DNA of 64,000 nt from Naegleria gruberi (taxonomy: Eukaryota). Below are positions 1 to 18,851 of this stretch, one piece after another (within the stretch, counting starts at the first letter, position 1; each line of letters opens with the position of its first letter). The notes beneath the pieces are model-generated. The model did not search any database and was not told where the DNA came from. It saw nothing but the letters and a program-made list of their open reading frames with translations. The position numbers were made by a program, and so were the translations under genes. The stretch lies in assembly GCA_000004985.1 (NCBI GenBank), contig GG738891.1; one strand, 5' to 3'.

Positions 1-2026
1 CTTTTGAGAGCTTTTGATTAGCTCTTAAACCCCAACCTCTATTCTTAGTTTTAAAAACACATAATTTAACATTACTTCCTTTTTGCACAACCCTGTTGGG
101 ACAAGTTTCAGAGCACCCACAATCTCTATTGCACTCTAAAATTACATATTTTGTATCAATATCTCTTAACTTTCCACTGTTGTCGTAGTAAACTTCATCA
201 CCTCTTCTAACAGGATTGAATTGACTTGGATCAAATATGTCTGTTCTGAATTCTTGTTGAAGTCTGAGACATTTACAACCCTTTCCACACTTATTTTTAC
301 AATCACATGCTTCAGAGTTTTTAAGAGCTGCCATTACTTCTCTTTGGTCTTCTGTGATTCCTTCACCGTACGTGTTACTTGTTGCATAAGCAAATGGCTC
401 AAATTCAGAAAAATCAACTGCATTTACAACAGGTACGGCTGTCCTAGATTTACCAAGAGAAATATCATCAAAGTAGTAGAAATGAGGAGATCCTTTCTTT
501 TTTCCTAACAGCTCTGGTAAGGTTTCACCATTAATAGTCTTACTAACCATAGATCTTATATAATTAAAGTGCCTACGAATAAATCTCTTCTTATGGTTGA
601 TCAAGTCATCAATTTTGTTGCAGGGATCACTAGGGTCCCTGTTTAAATCATCGTCGTCGTCTTCGCCCTCACTGTCACTTACAGTTATTTTACCCTTATT
701 TGAAAGGAATGACTTGGAGTAAGGATATGCTGATACAGTCTTAGAAATGGCCTTGTCAATCAGCTTGTCAACGTTTTCTAGTGCTTGGTTCAAAATATTT
801 AAATCCATGGTTTCTTCAACATGGAAATTGTTGAACTCTTTCCAATTTAAAGACTTTTCCAAATCACATGCATGTCTCTTTTTTGACTTGATATACTTTT
901 TAATAACCTCTGGATCTCTTCCAAATGAAAGACACACAACGGTCAACCAGTGGACAGGCAGTCTGTCAAATACTTCATTTTTGGACAGCTCATCCAAAAC
1001 ATCCTTTTCTCGTTGAATGAGGTGTGTAGACTTTACAAGGGAACTAAATATTATCCATCTAGTATCCGTTATCACACCGATCATTTGCGATTTAAAATTA
1101 TCATAAACAATTTGAGAAACATTTTCAACTTCAATTATGCCTTGTAAAAATGAATTCAGATAAGACATGATTTGGTCGTGAAGGGCATGCTTTTGATAGT
1201 CGTCCACAACCTCCAAAGCAATTTCACAAGGAGAAGTCATAGAGTCAACTTGAATTGTTCTTTCATCATTTTCCCAATGTGTAATTGACATGTTTTTCTC
1301 TGTAGGTATTCTATACTTCATTCTGAAACCAAAATCACACCTGCTCTCTGTTATAAGAACAGGATTATTTGTGAAATACCCAATGACTGCAAAGTATTTT
1401 TGACCATCATTTCTAGGAGTACAACTTCCAAGATAGATTCCTTTAAATTCCTCAATGTAAACCTCACACAAATATTCAGTAGGATTAAATTTGTGAATTT
1501 GTTCCTTTAGTTGAAGTTTAAATCCAGAGTCACCTTCCCACTCAAACATTTCATGAATCATTTCTTTTTTAATTTCAAAGACCTCTGAGCTTGCATCTGC
1601 ACAAATGTCATAAACAGATGGAGGAATACTATTGTCCACTATAATAATATTCATAAAACTAATCATTTCCAAATACTTTTCCTTGATTTTCATTTGTAAA
1701 GGAGGAGAAATCTTGTTGTTATTACATCGGAACCCATGTCTTGTTAGCCACTCAATCGCACCAGACTTGGTAGAAAAGTTTCTACCGCTCATGTGTTCGA
1801 TCTGACTCCACAGTACGTCAATAGAAATAGCATCACCCTCCAACACTTGTAGAATAAATTTTAAAAAAGATAAAAAGTCTGGGGAATATTGAATTTTCTG
1901 TAATGCTCCACAAACATTTATATCAAATGTTGTTCGGATTGTTTTTTGCTTTTTTGTTTTAGAACCTGTTACCACAACATCAGAATCATCATCCGAACCT
2001 GATGATTGTTTGTTCCGTTTAGACAT
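1..2026 (-). CDS. SET-domain histone-lysine N-methyltransferase, SUV39/Clr4-like (partial; 3' end lies beyond the window edge)
   Basis: Uninterrupted minus-strand frame from the ATG (plus 2026..2024) to position 1, confirmed by manual translation of several segments. It is absent from the ORF track because no stop codon falls inside the window. The translation shows a pre-SET Cys cluster (CDCKNKCGKGCKC ... ECNRDCGCSETCPNRVVQKG) followed by the start of a SET domain (FKTKNRGWGLRANQ) at nt 1..60. No chromodomain is evident in the N-terminal half. Confidence 0.7.
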   Translation of the reverse strand, partial: MSKRNKQSSGSDDDSDVVVTGSKTKKQKTIRTTFDINVCGALQKIQYSPDFLSFLKFILQVLEGDAISIDVLWSQIEHMSGRNFSTKSGAIEWLTRHGFRCNNNKISPPLQMKIKEKYLEMISFMNIIIVDNSIPPSVYDICADASSEVFEIKKEMIHEMFEWEGDSGFKLQLKEQIHKFNPTEYLCEVYIEEFKGIYLGSCTPRNDGQKYFAVIGYFTNNPVLITESRCDFGFRMKYRIPTEKNMSITHWENDERTIQVDSMTSPCEIALEVVDDYQKHALHDQIMSYLNSFLQGIIEVENVSQIVYDNFKSQMIGVITDTRWIIFSSLVKSTHLIQREKDVLDELSKNEVFDRLPVHWLTVVCLSFGRDPEVIKKYIKSKKRHACDLEKSLNWKEFNNFHVEETMDLNILNQALENVDKLIDKAISKTVSAYPYSKSFLSNKGKITVSDSEGEDDDDDLNRDPSDPCNKIDDLINHKKRFIRRHFNYIRSMVSKTINGETLPELLGKKKGSPHFYYFDDISLGKSRTAVPVVNAVDFSEFEPFAYATSNTYGEGITEDQREVMAALKNSEACDCKNKCGKGCKCLRLQQEFRTDIFDPSQFNPVRRGDEVYYDNSGKLRDIDTKYVILECNRDCGCSETCPNRVVQKGSNVKLCVFKTKNRGWGLRANQKLSK

Positions 2027-12630: not shown

Positions 12631-14906
12631 TTATTTATTCAACAGCTTCATTAATCGTTCAGAATCTACTACAGATGCATCTTTTTCAAGTTTCTTTTTA
12701 CAAGTAAGGTAGGCACGTTCAGCTTGTGCAACAATATTGTTCAGCTCTATGGCTCCAGAAAGATCAATGCATGCCTTCAAAATATCATCAAATCTATACT
12801 TTTGTGTGACAACCTCGTTTCTAATTTTTTGTAACATGGCGTAACAGATGAAAAGATGGAAGTGGTTTCCATATATTCCAGTCCATAACTTTTCCCACAT
12901 ATTTTTGCATGATTCAAAATCAAACTCTCTTTTCAACTCCACTAACACCCATCTGAAACAGAAATACAAGTTAAGTGCATCAACAGATTGTAAGTGACGG
13001 TAGAATTCAGGATCAAGTAATTTGATCAAAGAAACCAATGACACTAATTGATCTTCCATTCCTTGAGAATTCATCTCAAAGTTACTTTGTCTAGTTTCCA
13101 TTATACAAGCAAAACACCAGAATGATTCTACTTCATCTTTCATAATTTCTAACATAATACTGGCATAATCTCCCATTCCTTGTACATAACTCAAATCAAA
13201 ATTGTAGAAAGTGTATGTCAACAGGATGTCATGTAACATAACCAACCATTCACTATCATCACTAGCATACATTGGATGAGTTCTGTCTGTTCTAATAACA
13301 TCCTTTTCTATTCTGCTCTTTCTGTCTCTATAAAGAGCAAATCTAGATTCTTGAATGGTAGAAATTGTTGTCCATTGAGATTTATAACCATAGTATTCCT
13401 TTCTCTTTTCCTCGAGCAGAACTTCTCTTTCACTATAGGTCGAGTTATGAGGATAAAATCCTAACAAGAATTTCCAAACTTCCTTTCTTATACTATTTTC
13501 AACTCCTCCATAGTAAATTTTTTCCTTAAGAGCTTGGAAATCCTTAATTCTACCTTCCTCATCAAAGTATGTCTTCCAAGATTCAGCAGTGATTGGAGTA
13601 TCCATTCTTGGAGTCCAACCAATATCTTCTGGTGATTCAATTTTAGGCTTTTGTTGTTGTACATCTATAACTTTGACTGGTTCAATATCGTTGAAATAAT
13701 CATCTACTTCCTTGTTTTCCTCTGGCAAATAATTATCATATATTGATTCCTTAAGAGATTCTCTTATTATAGGTGGTGGAACTTTCTTCTTGTCCTCTAA
13801 TTAACGATTAAGATCAAATGATATAATTTAACAAAAAACATACCTTCCATCTTTTGCCTTACTTTGAGTAAACTCATAGCAAGATTTTCCGAGCCTCCAA
13901 CTTTGTTATCTACTGAAAGTTCATCTGATTGATTGAATAGTGCACTTGTTAAATCTCTAGCTCCTTTTGTAATTTTACTTCCCCACTCCAAGATTTGCCA
14001 GTATCCATCCTTCTCCTTATACATATCATCAAAATAGTCATCAAAATTAAATTGGTTGATGGTTTTTGATGCTTCTGATGACTCTGCAGAAATGTAGTAA
14101 ATATTCTGATCTTTACTACTCTTTTTCAATGTCACTTGTCTATTAAATTCTGAAATGAAATCTACCAATCCACCATCATGGAAAAACAATGGAGGATAAG
14201 TTGTTTCATCTCTCATTGTGATTAAAAGAAAATGATATCCTAATTTTGGAGTTTGTTTTTTGAAATGAGAAATATCTACTGTTCTCACAACCAATGCGTA
14301 TGCTGATTCATTTCTTTGAACAAATGGGCTATTATTTTGACTTATATCTACAATACTTCCTTGTGATGGACTACTTGCTAAATTTGAGTTTGGAACTCTA
14401 TGAGAATATCTATCAGGTGTTACAATTTCTCCATTAGATCTTTCATGTAAAACTAAATCGCTATTAAAAGTACAAAGTGTTGAATATGGACACCAAACTA
14501 CATAATAACAAGATCTTAAAACTGGTTGTACATTAGATGTTTCAACAATAAGAGATTTAGCTGTCATTACACTTCTACCAGTATTTTCTGTAGTTTTTTC
14601 AGTCAAATCCCTCACTAAAAACATAGCACCAGGAATTTGGTCAACAATATCCGAACCTTTTTGATTTGTTGTTTGAATAGAAGTGTGGATATAGATATCA
14701 TCCTTTCTCACTACAATTGAATACTTTGAAGATGCTAAATTTTGAGAAGAAAGCAATTCCCTAATATTGGGAGTATCTCCTCTCACATAGAATGAACTTC
14801 CGAATGTTGAATCTGAATTAAAAACTACTTGTGGTGATCCTTCTTCACTTTCATCATCTGATGATTCATGATGATAAATCAAAACACTATTATTTAAATC
14901 ATCCAT
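12631..14906 (-). CDS. TBC-domain Rab GTPase-activating protein (TBC1D15/TBC1D17/Gyp7-like)
   Basis: join(complement 13844..14906, 12631..13796); 47-nt intron (gtatgt..ttag) in phase 1 joins track ORFs 13797..14924 and 12631..13728. The N-terminal exon resembles the TBC1D15 N-terminal domain. The C-terminal exon has the Arg-finger IRTDRTHP and Gln-finger YVQGMGDY of the TBC domain. The real ATG is at 14906; the track start is a TTG. Confidence 0.75.
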
Positions 14907-15241
14907 TCTAAATATAATATACAATTACAATCAATATACAACTCCAATTATTCTTCTAAAGTTAGCCTTTATAATCGGAAGAGTTTCTATTCGTTGAAAT
15001 TTGGAGTAACTTTTAGCAACAACACACGTGATGATGATTGTTGTTCGTTATTTTTTTTTAGTATTAAGTGATGAGCTGTTTTTATATTGTGTTACCGCGA
15101 AGAACAATTGAAACACGTTTGATTGAGAGAGAGATGAAGATTTATTAATAACTTTCTAATTGAAGATTTGTTAATATTTCAAAGATCAATGAATAATTTT
15201 ACTCTTTTACAAATGGTTTGAGTTTTTGGTTGACAAAAAAA

Positions 15242-17146
15242 ATGGGCAAACGAAAACATTCAAAAATTGCTAAAGAAAATCATCAAGTTGATAATGATGA
15301 CCAAATAGAAGAAGAGAAAATAGTGGTTTTACCTCCTAAGGTATCAACAAAAAAGAAGAAGAAAAAGAAGAGAAAGAAAACTTCTCATGCATCTATCTCT
15401 TCATCATCAGTCTCGACAATTAATTCTGGTAATTCTATTGGATCGGAAATGATTAAAAAATGGAATCAAATTATTAGTTTGCAAGATACACTTCAATTAA
15501 TATTGGGTTTCATTCCCGATTATTTATTGGAAAGAACGATGAGATTTGTGAATAGGGATTTTTATTTGGCTTCTTCTGTGGTTTTTAGAGAATTGAAAAC
15601 TTGTTTGAAACTTTCTAAATTTAATGGTGACGAGAAAATATTGGAGAGTTGGAAAAAGTTTAAAAATCTGAAGAGTATTGACTTGGAATTTAAATTAGGG
15701 CATGAGGAGTTTAATGCTTCTGGTATGACAGATTTTGGAATTGAAACATGTATAATTAACTTTACAAATTCAGTATTTTCAAAGCCTCTTGTGGGAACTA
15801 AATGGGCTGATACTTTGAGATACTTAGATATTTGTATCCAGCATCAACAGTTTTGTCTATTATTTGAGTTGAGTTTACATACCTTAATAGTAGAACTCCA
15901 AGAAGATAGTGAAATAGATCTAAAGATAGGAAAAGAAGAAAAACCTCTATTCAACAGTTTGACATATTTTAATTATTCTTTATCAACATTCAATAATATG
16001 GAGGAATTCATCAATAGACTTGTTAACCTTACAACGTTAAGGAGTGATGATGAAATGAATATTGAGTTACTGAAACTACCAAAAATTAAGATGTATGACT
16101 GCGCACAGTTTGAACTAGAAGGAATACCAAAGGCATTCCCAAGGTTGGAACACCTCAAATCTTCCTCCTTTCTTTCAACAGCAGATATATTACAAGCACT
16201 AACTCTAAAAACCTTAAAAACTTTATCACTTAACGTAAACACAAGTTCATTTGATTTACTATCAGACGCAATTTTTAGCCTACCACTCCTAGAAAAACTA
16301 TCATTGTTTATCAACTTTAGTAGCTCAGAAAATAATGATGTCATTGCATCAAAGCCATTACCTTATTTGAAAAAGGTCAAATTGGTTCTTATTGATTATG
16401 ATGATGAAATACCTCCAGTATCTATTAGTCATTTCAATCAATGTGAAAATATTGAGAAAATTAGTTTTTTAGATGAAGCGCGACAAATATCAGTAGATCT
16501 TAATGATTTTTCTCCTTTTTCCAAGCTGAAAAGTATTCTAATAACGTGTAAATCTGTTTCTAATTGGAAAAATCCTGTATCTACATTAGAAATTTTGTCC
16601 ATTACTACAGAAAAAGCAAGTAATATAACCCTGATAGGACTCGATAAATTGAGAGAGATAGATTTTGTGTCAGAAAATACGAGTAGTTTAGTTAAATACT
16701 TTAATCATCATGCACCTTGTGATGGCCTTAAAAAATTGAACATTTCTGGAAAAGACATTTTGAAATACCCATTCCCATCAAATCTGGAAAGTCTCACCAT
16801 TAGTAATTTGGAACTCAAAGAAACTGATGATAATTTTACCAACATTTTAAAGAAACAAACTAATCTTAGAAAAATAGTAATTGAAGAATCCAAACTTGAC
16901 CTTCTCTCAATACTAGAAACATTAACATGCCTCATTCATCAAGTTACGAAAATATCCATTGCTGGTAAATCATCCCCAACCCATTCAGAATCCAAATACA
17001 TCACCAATCTACTCAGAGTCCTCTCCATTTTCGATTCAAAGAGAATAATATTGGAATTAACTGAATTCAGTTTAACATTCTCTCATCAAGGAACAAGATA
17101 TCTCCGTTCTCAAATCAAGTCTCGTTTATTTGAATATTGGAAGTGA
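15242..17146 (+). CDS. F-box-like / leucine-rich-repeat protein
   Basis: The track ORF 15218..17146 begins at a TTG; the first ATG (MGKRKHSK) is at 15242. Lys-rich N-terminus, F-box-like segment (LQLILGFIPDYLLERTMRFVNRDF), then degenerate LRRs. See findings: a start-less coding exon in the +1 frame overlaps its 3' end. Confidence 0.5.
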   Translation: MGKRKHSKIAKENHQVDNDDQIEEEKIVVLPPKVSTKKKKKKKRKKTSHASISSSSVSTINSGNSIGSEMIKKWNQIISLQDTLQLILGFIPDYLLERTMRFVNRDFYLASSVVFRELKTCLKLSKFNGDEKILESWKKFKNLKSIDLEFKLGHEEFNASGMTDFGIETCIINFTNSVFSKPLVGTKWADTLRYLDICIQHQQFCLLFELSLHTLIVELQEDSEIDLKIGKEEKPLFNSLTYFNYSLSTFNNMEEFINRLVNLTTLRSDDEMNIELLKLPKIKMYDCAQFELEGIPKAFPRLEHLKSSSFLSTADILQALTLKTLKTLSLNVNTSSFDLLSDAIFSLPLLEKLSLFINFSSSENNDVIASKPLPYLKKVKLVLIDYDDEIPPVSISHFNQCENIEKISFLDEARQISVDLNDFSPFSKLKSILITCKSVSNWKNPVSTLEILSITTEKASNITLIGLDKLREIDFVSENTSSLVKYFNHHAPCDGLKKLNISGKDILKYPFPSNLESLTISNLELKETDDNFTNILKKQTNLRKIVIEESKLDLLSILETLTCLIHQVTKISIAGKSSPTHSESKYITNLLRVLSIFDSKRIILELTEFSLTFSHQGTRYLRSQIKSRLFEYWK

Positions 17147-17895
17147 GGATCAATTAAATGGAACTCAATTCTGTAATTCAATAACAAAGAATATTTGTGA
17201 CAAATTTTGTGATCTATTCAGAAAGGACATTCAAAATACATCAGTTAGAAAGGCATTCAAAGCATTCAAACCTCACTTGAATGTAATTTATAGAGATGTT
17301 ATTCTTTCAATAGGTAAACAATTGATTTATGATTGTACATGTTGTGATGCAAAGGTTGGATGGTTACACATATTTAACATTAAAAATTGCCCCAATATCT
17401 TTACTCCAATAGAGGTTCAAATAGTGGAACAGAAACCAACCAAGAAAAATTCCAAGAGGTAAGTGCATACTAAAAATTAGAGATCTAATACTAGATAGTA
17501 AGAATACAGTACAAAATATTGAAATGGCAAACACCTTTACCAAAGAACTTTCCCATTTTCAATGGATAATTGAATTAGAGAATGATCAACCACAAGTAGT
17601 TATTCTAGTCAATGATTTTCTAAATGCCTTTGTAAAAATTTGTAAAATATTCCCAGAAATACCCAACTTTACCAAAGTACGAGCCAAAACAGCTCCATCA
17701 AACACTTTTCAAGAGTGTTACATAATGAAATTTAACAATACTTTTGCCTGTCTACCAATAACAATAGATGCAGGAAATATTGATATAGAATCAGATATCC
17801 AATCAATTGTAAATATTCACTTGGAACGAATTGATAAATTTTTGGAAACTATACAAACAGAACTATCCCCACAAATAACCAATATTAAACTATAG
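17076..17895 (+). CDS. Cys-rich hypothetical protein segment: start-less exon plus a downstream exon (possibly the C-terminal part of the preceding LRR gene)
   Basis: Frame open from 17076; the track starts it at a TTG (17130). There is no ATG or internal Met in the 128 codons before a canonical 40-nt intron (17459..17498, gtaagt..atag), which splices in phase into track ORF 17524..17895 (MANTFTKELSHFQWIIELEND...). Contains a CxxC-rich segment (CNSITKNICDKFCDLF ... DCTCCDAKVGW). Confidence 0.4.
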
Positions 17896-17935
17896 ATCTG
17901 TCATGATAAGAAGATCAGTAATGATATATATAGTT

Positions 17936-18505
17936 TTACATCTTTGAATCAAAAGGTCCATTATGAATTCTAAGTCCAGTCTTTAGACAATTCAAATAAT
18001 ATCCATAAAATAAATCTTTACAGTTTTCATGTGTAAGCATGACATTTGCTGGATTAAACTCTTTAGCTCCCAAATTCATTAATTTGAAACATTTTTCATA
18101 CAATTTATAATGTAAATTGCATTTTCTAGTATTTGAAGCTGTTGCTGCTGCAAGATAATGCCTCCTATAAATACAATCACCATAATCCTTTGATATCTTT
18201 AAACAATCTTTATCATAATTAATTTCTTGATTATTCTGAAAACAATTTTTTAATTCATTATGTTCTAGAGAACAAACTAATCCACTAAATTTAAATGCAA
18301 ATGTATCCAATGTATCAAGTTGAACTCTGTAGAGTATTTCTCTCGGAATTTGTTTTTCATCTACTGGTCCAGCAGAGAATAATTCTCCCGATTCATAGTT
18401 GGGCATTTTTTTATTTGGTTTTTTAATTATTTGTTTTATTACTTTATTTTCACAACAAGTGAAAGTACTATAATATAATTCATTGAAAAAGTTACTGTAT
18501 TGCAT
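17936..18505 (-). CDS. Hypothetical Cys-containing protein (189 aa)
   Basis: ATG-initiated single ORF with no recognisable domain. The composition is not low-complexity. Confidence 0.4.
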   Translation of the reverse strand: MQYSNFFNELYYSTFTCCENKVIKQIIKKPNKKMPNYESGELFSAGPVDEKQIPREILYRVQLDTLDTFAFKFSGLVCSLEHNELKNCFQNNQEINYDKDCLKISKDYGDCIYRRHYLAAATASNTRKCNLHYKLYEKCFKLMNLGAKEFNPANVMLTHENCKDLFYGYYLNCLKTGLRIHNGPFDSKM

Positions 18506-18593
18506 TCATAACATTGATAATTGTAAGAGTATTTAATTATTCAATTATTCGGCTATAATTGAATTTTTATTTTTTTCATCAAGAAGGAAAAAA

Positions 18594-18797
18594 ATGGCTT
18601 TGTCCACTGTTCACGGAAAAGATTTAAAGATTTTAGGCGCCATCGTATTCGCTAGGTAAGTTGATGATGATGTTTAGTAGTGGAGATTAATTGATGATGA
18701 TTATAGAGTGTTGGTTAAAGCATACAGGGAATACACTAGACCAGATTATGCTGAAGTCACAAAGGCTGCCATTGGAAACGCACCAGCAAGCAATTAA
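18594..18797 (+). CDS. Small two-exon protein (50 aa), likely small membrane/mitochondrial subunit-like
   Basis: join(18594..18655,18707..18797); 51-nt intron gtaagt..tatag in phase 2, aaaaATG context. The product is MALSTVHGKDLKILGAIVFARVLVKAYREYTRPDYAEVTKAAIGNAPASN. It is invisible to the ORF track (too short, spliced). Confidence 0.4.
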
Positions 18798-18851
18798 ATT
18801 TTCGGATGTTTGATAGTTTTAAAGTGATTGTACAATTTAAAATATATATAT

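What the first reader, a model, noticed from the sequence alone, without database searches (positions are those of the whole stretch)
16950..17900. Start-less coding exon overlapping the 3' end of the LRR gene and splicing into the downstream ORF
The frame at 17076..17458 is open for 128 codons, has no ATG or internal Met, begins inside the last 70 nt of the LRR gene (+1 frame) and is joined by a textbook 40-nt GTAAGT..ATAG intron, in phase, to ORF 17524..17895. An open, Cys-patterned, spliced segment is very unlikely to be UTR. Either the LRR gene continues into it (alternative 3' exon via the donor gct g|gtaaat near 16962 and the acceptor gaacaag| at 17097, which is phase-compatible), or there is a +1 indel in the draft sequence, or it is an unusual overlapping gene.
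Basis: seen in the sequence. Interest (0 to 1): 0.55.

Follow-up and report, generated by a model that had tools for sequence, protein, structure and literature searches.

The report
Gene beheaded by a 565-bp deletion
The "start-less spliced exon" is the surviving 3' two-thirds of an ordinary neighbouring gene (a longin-domain protein of Naegleria) whose promoter, start codon and first 144 codons are missing from this Naegleria gruberi reference sequence because of a 565-bp deletion that also clipped the end of the upstream leucine-rich-repeat gene.

Summary
The window is Naegleria gruberi. The LRR ORF ends at TGA 17144-17146. A Met-less frame is open from 17076 to 17458. A 40-nt GTAAGT..ATAG intron (17459-17498) joins it in phase to the frame ending at 17895.

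A contig from a closely related N. gruberi strain (L002, 99.4-99.6% identical on both sides) carries 565 extra bases exactly at window 17126/17127. Those bases hold the ancestral LRR C-terminus (FTTISFD*, also kept by the paralogues in the reference genome), a 113-bp spacer, and the ATG plus 144 codons of the downstream gene.

Intact, that gene encodes a 386-aa protein. Stand-alone orthologues of 417-424 aa exist in N. fowleri and Willaertia magna, and they run collinear across both the deletion point and the intron. The fold is longin plus roadblock, closest to Mon1/Ccz1/Fuzzy/Inturned/HPS4.

The window therefore shows a truncated gene remnant and an LRR gene with a six-residue accidental tail (LFEYWK*). 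I could not determine whether the deletion is a real allele of the sequenced strain or an assembly fault. The finding is ordinary and of low interest.

The parts
15242..17146 (+). LRR (F-box-LRR-like) gene as it reads in this sequence, 634 aa. It equals the annotated N. gruberi 'predicted protein' P0001.
   Evidence: translation. (100% identity to the NCBI N. gruberi protein); the model has alternating strand/helix repeats and every top Foldseek hit is an LRR protein, the best being F-box protein 6brp_D at E 5e-7. Pfam finds nothing.
17126..17127 (.). Deletion junction. This 2-bp 'TT' microhomology is shared by both flanks, and 565 bp present in L002 (243..807) are absent here.
   Evidence: L002 1..242 matches window 16886..17127 and L002 808..2519 matches window 17126..18833. 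One search gives the junction sequences.
17126..17146 (+). Accidental new C-terminus of the LRR protein, LFEYWK*. It arises because the LRR frame reads the neighbour's codons for (D)YLNIGSE out of frame, and it replaces the ancestral FTTISFD*.
   Evidence: L002 reads ...SQIKSRFTTISFD*. (paralogues P0002 and P0020 end ...SRFTTISFTS).
17076..17126 (+). Seventeen codons of LRR-gene sequence that happen to be stop-free in the +1 frame. They are not part of the downstream gene.
   Evidence: Homology to the downstream gene starts at 17127, and everything upstream aligns to the LRR gene end in L002 and L001.
17127..17458 (+). Remnant of exon 1 of the longin-domain gene: codons 145-254 plus the first 2 nt of codon 255. 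It has no start codon and no promoter.
   Evidence: 100% identical to P0003 residues 145-254. (aligns to N. fowleri P0004 at about residues 165-270).
17459..17498 (+). 40-nt phase-2 spliceosomal intron, GTAAGT..(TACTAAA)..ATAG.
   Evidence: Orthologous proteins are collinear across it. The N. fowleri orthologue has a phase-2 intron in the same K/S-rich linker.
17499..17895 (+). Exon 2 of the longin-domain gene: third base of codon 255, codons 256-386, and stop TAG 17893-17895.
   Evidence: Two amino-acid differences from L002. Aligns to the C-terminal roadblock-type domain of P0004, P0006 and P0007.

Best explanation
The window is the Naegleria gruberi reference sequence. In the ancestral arrangement, still present in a closely related N. 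gruberi strain (contig L002), the LRR gene ends ...SQIKSRFTTISFD*. A 113-bp spacer follows. Then a separate two-exon gene starts with ATG and encodes a 386-aa protein with an N-terminal longin domain and a C-terminal roadblock/lamtor-type domain.

In the window a single 565-bp deletion with 2 bp of microhomology has removed four things: the last 8 codons (FTTISFD plus the stop) of the LRR gene, the spacer (and with it, presumably, the LRR 3' end signals and the neighbour's promoter), the neighbour's ATG, and its first 144 codons. Those codons are essentially all five strands of its first longin domain.

What is shown:
- The LRR frame now runs 6 codons into the neighbour's interior, out of frame, and stops at 17146.
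- The neighbour survives as a start-less but otherwise undecayed remnant: 17127..17458, the intron, then 17499..17895.
- The apparent 'overlap' is 51 nt of chance-open LRR sequence plus 20 nt of former neighbour codons.

What is inferred:
- The remnant cannot make the normal protein, because no in-frame start exists and the first longin domain is gone. In tri-longin RabGEFs the first longin domains (LD1) form the catalytic centre (PMC8833172).
- If the remnant is transcribed at all, it is most likely as a long intron-containing 3' UTR of the LRR mRNA.
- The absence of stops or frameshifts, with only 3 substitutions in about 730 nt, means the deletion is recent. Alternatively it is one allele of a heterozygous strain, or an assembly fault.
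For: Organism:
- the LRR protein is 100% identical to 'predicted protein [Naegleria gruberi]'.

Intact allele:
- P0003 (255 aa, contig L002) has 144 extra N-terminal residues beginning with ATG, followed by a 100% match to the window's start-less frame.
- L002 1..242 matches window 16886..17127 (99.6%) and L002 808..2519 matches window 17126..18833 (99.4%).
- 565 bp are absent from the window, the junction carries TT microhomology, and the L002 gene is 377..1140 + 1181..1577, giving 386 aa.

L002 is the ancestral state, not an insertion or a chimera:
- Its LRR tail FTTISFD* matches the paralogues P0002 and P0020 (...SRFTTISFTS).
- Its extra N-terminus MNGILIISSKIGTPIWSREY... is conserved in N. 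fowleri FDP41_006445 (417 aa, E 1.5e-44, one aligned stretch 1-227 spanning the deletion point), in Willaertia magna ABK040_002075 (424 aa) and in others.

The intron is real:
- Orthologues are collinear across it.
- N. fowleri has a phase-2 intron in the same linker.

Fold of the lost gene:
- AlphaFold model with pLDDT 60 and pTM 0.62, showing a longin beta-beta-alpha-beta-beta-beta-alpha layout followed by a roadblock-type domain.
- Foldseek top hits are Fuzzy-Inturned (E 2.7e-4), CPLANE and Mon1-Ccz1.

Not annotated in N. gruberi:
- Searches return no NCBI N. gruberi protein for it.
Against: - The intact allele rests on a single 2.5-kb metagenome-assembled contig (L002).
- No independent contig was found: two scans of JGI metagenomes returned nothing, and exact-protein look-ups returned only L002 again.
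- No reads or transcripts of the sequenced strain could be examined. Whether the deletion exists in the organism, on all chromosome copies, or only in the assembly is therefore unknown.
- The remnant shows no decay at all. This fits a very recent deletion, but it fits an artefact or a heterozygous allele equally well.
Confidence: 0.9

Rival explanations
1. The deletion is not biological. The 565 bp were lost in the draft assembly or in cloning, and the living NEG-M strain has both genes intact.
For: - The remnant is completely undecayed: 0 differences from L002 in 17127..17795, and no stops or frameshifts.
- No independent sequence of the reference strain could be found to confirm the junction.
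Against: - No repeats flank the segment that could collapse an assembly. Only 2 bp of microhomology are present, which is typical of a real end-joining deletion.
- The junction sits inside clean, N-free sequence.
- From general knowledge, consensus sequences of multi-fold shotgun assemblies rarely carry clone-specific deletions.
- Naegleria is described as mainly a heterozygous diploid (PMC9928731), so a one-allele deletion picked up by the assembler is plausible.
Confidence: 0.25
2. One reading: the LRR gene continues into the start-less frame through an alternative 3' exon (donor 16965, acceptor 17097), producing one long LRR-plus-tail protein.
For: The 133-nt interval is GT..AG bounded and phase-compatible.
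Against: - The proposed intron is conserved protein-coding sequence in the LRR frame: 48 aa at 68.8% identity to the paralogue over 16982..17125, and 241/242 nt identical in L002.
- At 133 nt it is far longer than the 40-51-nt introns seen locally.
- The downstream frames are a separate gene in L002, N. fowleri and Willaertia, with no LRR attached.
Confidence: 0.02
3. A programmed +1 ribosomal frameshift at AAG-UGA-G (17141-17147), of the antizyme or Euplotes kind, fuses the LRR protein to the downstream frame (…EYWK|EDQLNG…).
For: Skipping T17144 does put the ribosome into the open frame. A stop codon in the A site is the classic context for +1 shifting (general knowledge).
Against: - The 0/+1 juxtaposition was created by the deletion and is absent from the intact allele and from the paralogues. 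There the LRR gene has its own stop and the neighbour its own ATG.
- No relative has an LRR-longin fusion.
- The fused product would begin within the final helix of a beheaded longin domain.
Confidence: 0.02
4. The start-less frame is an independent functional gene that initiates at a non-AUG codon, or at Met 17524, and overlaps the LRR gene end.
For: The frame is intact, and a 123-codon ATG ORF exists at 17524..17895.
Against: - All orthologues start 144-160 residues further upstream with the invariant MNG...GTPI motif.
- Met 17524 is an internal, non-conserved residue in a disordered linker.
- The promoter region of the intact allele is deleted.
Confidence: 0.04
5. The window is the ancestral state and L002 carries a 565-bp insertion, or is a chimeric metagenome contig.
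For: L002 is a single short MEGAHIT-style contig from a sample labelled as a metagenome.
Against: - The extra 565 bp complete two different genes in frame.
- They restore the LRR tail shared with the paralogues.
- They supply an N-terminus 51% identical to the N. fowleri orthologue, aligned as one stretch across the junction.
- A random insertion or chimera could not do this.
Confidence: 0.01

Closest known systems
5'-truncated gene remnant (deletion pseudogene or deletion allele) created by a microhomology-mediated deletion
   Same: A homologous intact copy exists in a sister strain and in other species. The promoter, the start codon and 37% of the CDS are missing. The flanks are joined at 2 bp of microhomology. 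The neighbouring gene acquires a short out-of-frame tail.
   Different: No secondary decay has occurred yet. It is not established that the deletion is fixed in the strain, or that it is real rather than an assembly fault.
Tri-longin-domain (TLD) RabGEF subunits: Mon1, Ccz1, Fuzzy, Inturned, HPS1, HPS4
   Same: The intact protein starts with a longin domain. Its best structural matches are Mon1, HPS4, CCZ1, Inturned and Fuzzy. A long helix follows the first longin domain, like the alphaX element, and the last domain is roadblock/lamtor-type, as LD3 of Mon1/Ccz1 is described (PMC8833172). At 386-424 aa its size is similar to Fuzzy.
   Different: Only two longin/roadblock domains are recognisable in the model, not three. 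The Pfam Fuz_longin_1 match is far below threshold (12 bits against 26.1, and only for the Willaertia homologue). A profile search finds no sequence match to any solved TLD protein. Relatives were found only in Heterolobosea-like sequences.
Programmed +1 frameshift genes (antizyme, Euplotes AAA-UAA sites)
   Same: A 0-frame stop is followed immediately by a long open +1 frame.
   Different: Here the arrangement is an accident of a deletion. It is not conserved, and the two frames belong to unrelated genes.

Membership tests
Truncated gene remnant produced by deletion | Collinear homology to an intact gene, with a block missing at one point | tested here: met
   99.4-99.6% identity on both sides of a 565-bp gap at 17126/17127.
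Truncated gene remnant produced by deletion | The missing block is ancestral (a deletion here, not an insertion elsewhere) | tested here: met
   The N-terminus is conserved in N. fowleri and Willaertia. The LRR tail is conserved in the paralogues.
Truncated gene remnant produced by deletion | Loss of start codon and promoter; no alternative in-frame start | tested here: met
   No ATG in 17076..17458. The ATG and the spacer lie in the deleted segment.
Truncated gene remnant produced by deletion | The deletion is present in the organism's DNA, not only in the assembly | not testable with these tools
   No reads or second assembly of the strain were available.
Spliceosomal GT-AG intron (17459..17498) | Consensus donor and acceptor, with an in-phase join of two open frames | tested here: met
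   GTAAGT...ATAG, 40 nt, phase 2.
Spliceosomal GT-AG intron (17459..17498) | Homologous proteins are continuous across the junction | tested here: met
   N. fowleri has a phase-2 intron within about 2 residues of the same spot.
Spliceosomal GT-AG intron (17459..17498) | Spliced transcript observed | not testable with these tools
   No transcript data were reachable.
Tri-longin-domain RabGEF subunit (Mon1/Ccz1/Fuzzy/Inturned/HPS1/HPS4) | Sequence match to the family's first-longin-domain model (Pfam PF19036) above threshold | tested here: not met
   The only hit is P0006 at E 0.24 and 12 bits, against a cut-off of 26.1.
Tri-longin-domain RabGEF subunit (Mon1/Ccz1/Fuzzy/Inturned/HPS1/HPS4) | Three longin-type domains in one chain | tested here: inconclusive
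   The model (pLDDT 60) shows one longin and one roadblock-type domain, plus long low-confidence loops. A third domain is not evident.
Tri-longin-domain RabGEF subunit (Mon1/Ccz1/Fuzzy/Inturned/HPS1/HPS4) | Closest solved structures are TLD subunits | tested here: met
Tri-longin-domain RabGEF subunit (Mon1/Ccz1/Fuzzy/Inturned/HPS1/HPS4) | Heterodimer with a second TLD subunit, and Rab nucleotide-exchange activity | not testable with these tools
   Needs biochemistry.
Leucine-rich-repeat protein (upstream gene) | Match to LRR sequence profiles | tested here: not met
   no Pfam family at E<=1.
Leucine-rich-repeat protein (upstream gene) | Solenoid of strand/helix repeats resembling solved LRR proteins | tested here: met
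   (repeating E/H units, pLDDT 57); the listed top 50 hits are almost all LRR proteins, and the best is F-box protein 6brp_D at E 5e-7.
Programmed +1 ribosomal frameshift gene | The 0/+1 frame arrangement is conserved in relatives and the product is a single conserved protein | tested here: not met
   relatives have two separate genes with their own stop and start.

The most novel reading that the evidence does not exclude
The deletion is real and homozygous in the laboratory strain NEG-M. The reference N. gruberi would then be a natural knockout of a heterolobosean-conserved longin/roadblock protein related to the Mon1/Fuzzy class of Rab activators. Its LRR (F-box-like) neighbour would be expressed with a new tail and a roughly 750-nt 3' UTR containing a spliceable intron, and so might be subject to nonsense-mediated decay. 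That would make NEG-M versus wild strains a ready-made genetic contrast for the function of an uncharacterised trafficking factor.
Probability: 0.3. Interest if true: 0.3.

Novelty: new member of a known kind. Interest (0 to 1): 0.15.

Why it matters
- **Annotation.** The reference N. gruberi protein P0001 carries a six-residue artefactual C-terminus.
- **Missing gene.** A gene conserved in N. fowleri and Willaertia is absent from the N. gruberi gene set, because only a beheaded copy is in the assembly.
- **Effect on comparative studies.** Comparative gene-content studies of Naegleria would score this family as 'lost in N. gruberi', although a near-identical strain has it intact.
- **Biology.** Nothing new is implied. 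Deletions with microhomology that truncate genes are commonplace.

Tried and rejected
1. Exact-protein look-ups for the LRR protein, the 123-aa ORF and the 189-aa neighbour found no second assembly of the locus. Only L002 came back.
2. Two scans of JGI metagenome contigs with the left and right junction flanks returned nothing.
3. Literature searches for the ENA project and run identifiers of L002 returned nothing, so the origin of the intact strain is unknown.
4. I first took P0002/L001 for an orthologue from another species. and one search showed it is 98% identical to N. gruberi NAEGRDRAFT_48349, so it is a paralogue. The conclusion about the ancestral C-terminus is unchanged.
5. I checked by hand several other routes: a short intron inside 17070..17190 (GT 17070/AG 17097, 28 nt; GTGAGG 17143/AG 17189, 47 nt) and a mini-exon ATG 17158 with donor 17173. 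Each is out of phase, runs into stops, or would discard conserved residues. The deletion makes them unnecessary.
6. Pfam on the remnant, on the intact protein and on its homologues gave nothing significant. A profile search against PDB sequences also gave nothing.
The afdb50 fold library was unavailable.
Full report
**What is in the sequence**

The window is AT-rich eukaryotic DNA (about 30% GC). The upstream ORF (15242..17146, 634 aa) is 100% identical to an annotated 'predicted protein' of Naegleria gruberi.

- The LRR frame stops at TGA 17144-17146.
- The +1 frame is open from 17076 to 17458 with no Met.
- GTAAGT at 17459 and ATAG ending at 17498 delimit a 40-nt intron.
- The split codon AG|T continues in phase through 17499..17895, which includes ATG 17524.

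In 200 shuffles of the window, open frames of at least 128 codons occur 0.36 times per window. Frames of at least 260 codons, the spliced length, never occur.

**The decisive comparison**

I searched with the spliced start-less protein. The only hit was P0003, a 255-aa protein from a 2.5-kb ENA contig (L002). Its C-terminal 110 residues are identical to the window's frame, and they are preceded by 144 further residues starting with Met.

At the DNA level, L002 1..242 matches window 16886..17127 (99.6%) and L002 808..2519 matches window 17126..18833 (99.4%). The window therefore lacks 565 bp exactly at 17126/17127, where the two flanks share only 'TT'.

The missing piece contains three things:
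- The end of the LRR gene (...SQIKSR-FTTISFD*).
- A 113-bp spacer.
- The ATG and first 144 codons of the downstream gene.

In L002 that gene reads 377..1140 + intron + 1181..1577, giving 386 aa.

**Direction of the change**

L002 is the ancestral state, for two reasons. First, the LRR paralogues in the N. gruberi reference itself (P0020, 98% identical to P0002 on contig L001) end ...SRFTTISFTS, like L002 and unlike the window's ...SRLFEYWK. Second, the N-terminus that the window lacks (MNGILIISSKIGTPIWSREY...) is conserved. It is present in N. fowleri FDP41_006445 (417 aa, E 1.5e-44, aligned as one stretch across the deletion point), in Willaertia magna ABK040_002075 (424 aa), and in several environmental sequences.

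These orthologues are stand-alone proteins without LRRs. In N. fowleri the gene's upstream neighbour is a different gene.

- The proposed 16965..17097 intron is conserved coding sequence in the LRR frame: 68.8% amino-acid identity to the paralogue, and 241/242 nt identical in L002. That reading fails.
- A +1 frameshift at AAG-TGA-G would be arithmetically possible. But the juxtaposition exists only because of the deletion and is not conserved.
- The 'overlap' has two parts. One is 51 nt of LRR sequence that happens to be open in the +1 frame (17076..17126). The other is 20 nt of former downstream-gene codons that the LRR frame now reads until it meets a stop (17126..17146, LFEYWK*).

The intron is real. 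Orthologues are collinear across it, and the N. fowleri gene has a phase-2 intron in the same K/S-rich linker.

**What the beheaded gene is**

Sequence profiles are silent. I therefore built an AlphaFold model of the N. fowleri orthologue from the family alignment (pLDDT 60, pTM 0.62). It shows an N-terminal longin layout (beta-beta-alpha-beta-beta-beta-alpha), a long helix, and a C-terminal roadblock/lamtor-type domain.

- Foldseek ranks Fuzzy-Inturned (E 2.7e-4), CPLANE and Mon1-Ccz1 first.

The protein thus resembles subunits of the tri-longin RabGEFs. Membership is not established, because only two domains are visible and the Pfam match is far below threshold.

The deletion removes residues 1-144, which are all five strands of the first longin domain. 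In Mon1-Ccz1 the catalytic centre lies between the LD1 domains (PMC8833172). By inference, any product of the remnant would be non-functional.

**The upstream gene**

Pfam finds no LRR. The model is a strand/helix solenoid, and its Foldseek hits are LRR proteins led by the F-box protein D3/MAX2 family.

**What remains open**

The remnant differs from L002 by only three substitutions, all in the last 100 nt of the CDS. It has no stop or frameshift. The deletion is therefore recent, or it is one allele of a heterozygous strain (Naegleria is described as mainly a heterozygous diploid, PMC9928731), or it is an assembly or cloning fault.

The absence of flanking repeats and the 2-bp microhomology favour a real end-joining deletion. 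I could find no independent sequence of the strain to settle it.

**Verdict**

- The mechanism is an ordinary 565-bp deletion that beheaded a neighbouring gene.
- The practical value is an annotation correction for N. gruberi, namely a false C-terminus on the LRR protein and a conserved gene missing from the gene set.
- Interest is low.

Noticed in passing
L001 2621..2653 (paralogous locus; corresponds to N. gruberi NAEGRDRAFT_48349): Directly on the stop codon of the LRR paralogue (TC-ATG-A) sits 'MIGILIISSKI'. It is 10/11 aa and 29/33 nt identical to the start of the longin gene, and the frame closes 5 codons later. The paralogous locus therefore also keeps only a stub of the neighbour. This suggests a segmental duplication of the LRR gene plus the neighbour's start, followed by decay.
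   Followed up: partly
P0021 (N. gruberi EFC45603, 773 aa; not in the window): A third LRR paralogue is almost identical to P0020 up to ...DSKKIDLKLN. It then continues into an unrelated 167-aa coiled-coil-like tail. This is either another 3'-end rearrangement in the family or a fused gene model.
   Followed up: no
window 12631..13728 (-) and 13797..14924 (-): Two adjacent minus-strand ORFs carry a RabGAP-TBC domain (E 2.5e-37) and a PH-like Rab-binding domain (E 6e-5). They are probably two exons of a single TBC RabGAP gene lying just upstream of the LRR gene.
   Followed up: partly
window 18594..18655 + 18707..18797 (+): A tiny two-exon ORF of 50 aa (MALSTVHGKDLKILGAIVFA-R-VLVKAYREYTRPDYAEVTKAAIGNAPASN) is split by a 51-nt GTAAGT..TAG intron. 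L002 has 3 extra bases inside that intron. The identity of the ORF was not examined.
   Followed up: no
whole window: GTAAGT is strongly under-represented: 16 occurrences on both strands against about 43 expected from base composition. Twelve of the 16 are followed by YAG within 26-76 nt. This is consistent with the hexamer being largely reserved for short introns.
   Followed up: partly
L003 6001..7370 (N. fowleri orthologue FDP41_006445): The N. fowleri gene has a second intron, inside ...ICDK|FC..., that N. gruberi lacks (window 17195..17215 is continuous). This is an intron gain or loss between the two Naegleria species.
   Followed up: no
window 17936..18505 (-): A 189-aa ORF converges on the remnant gene and ends 41 nt after its stop. 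It has no Pfam match and is conserved in L002 with one substitution.
   Followed up: no
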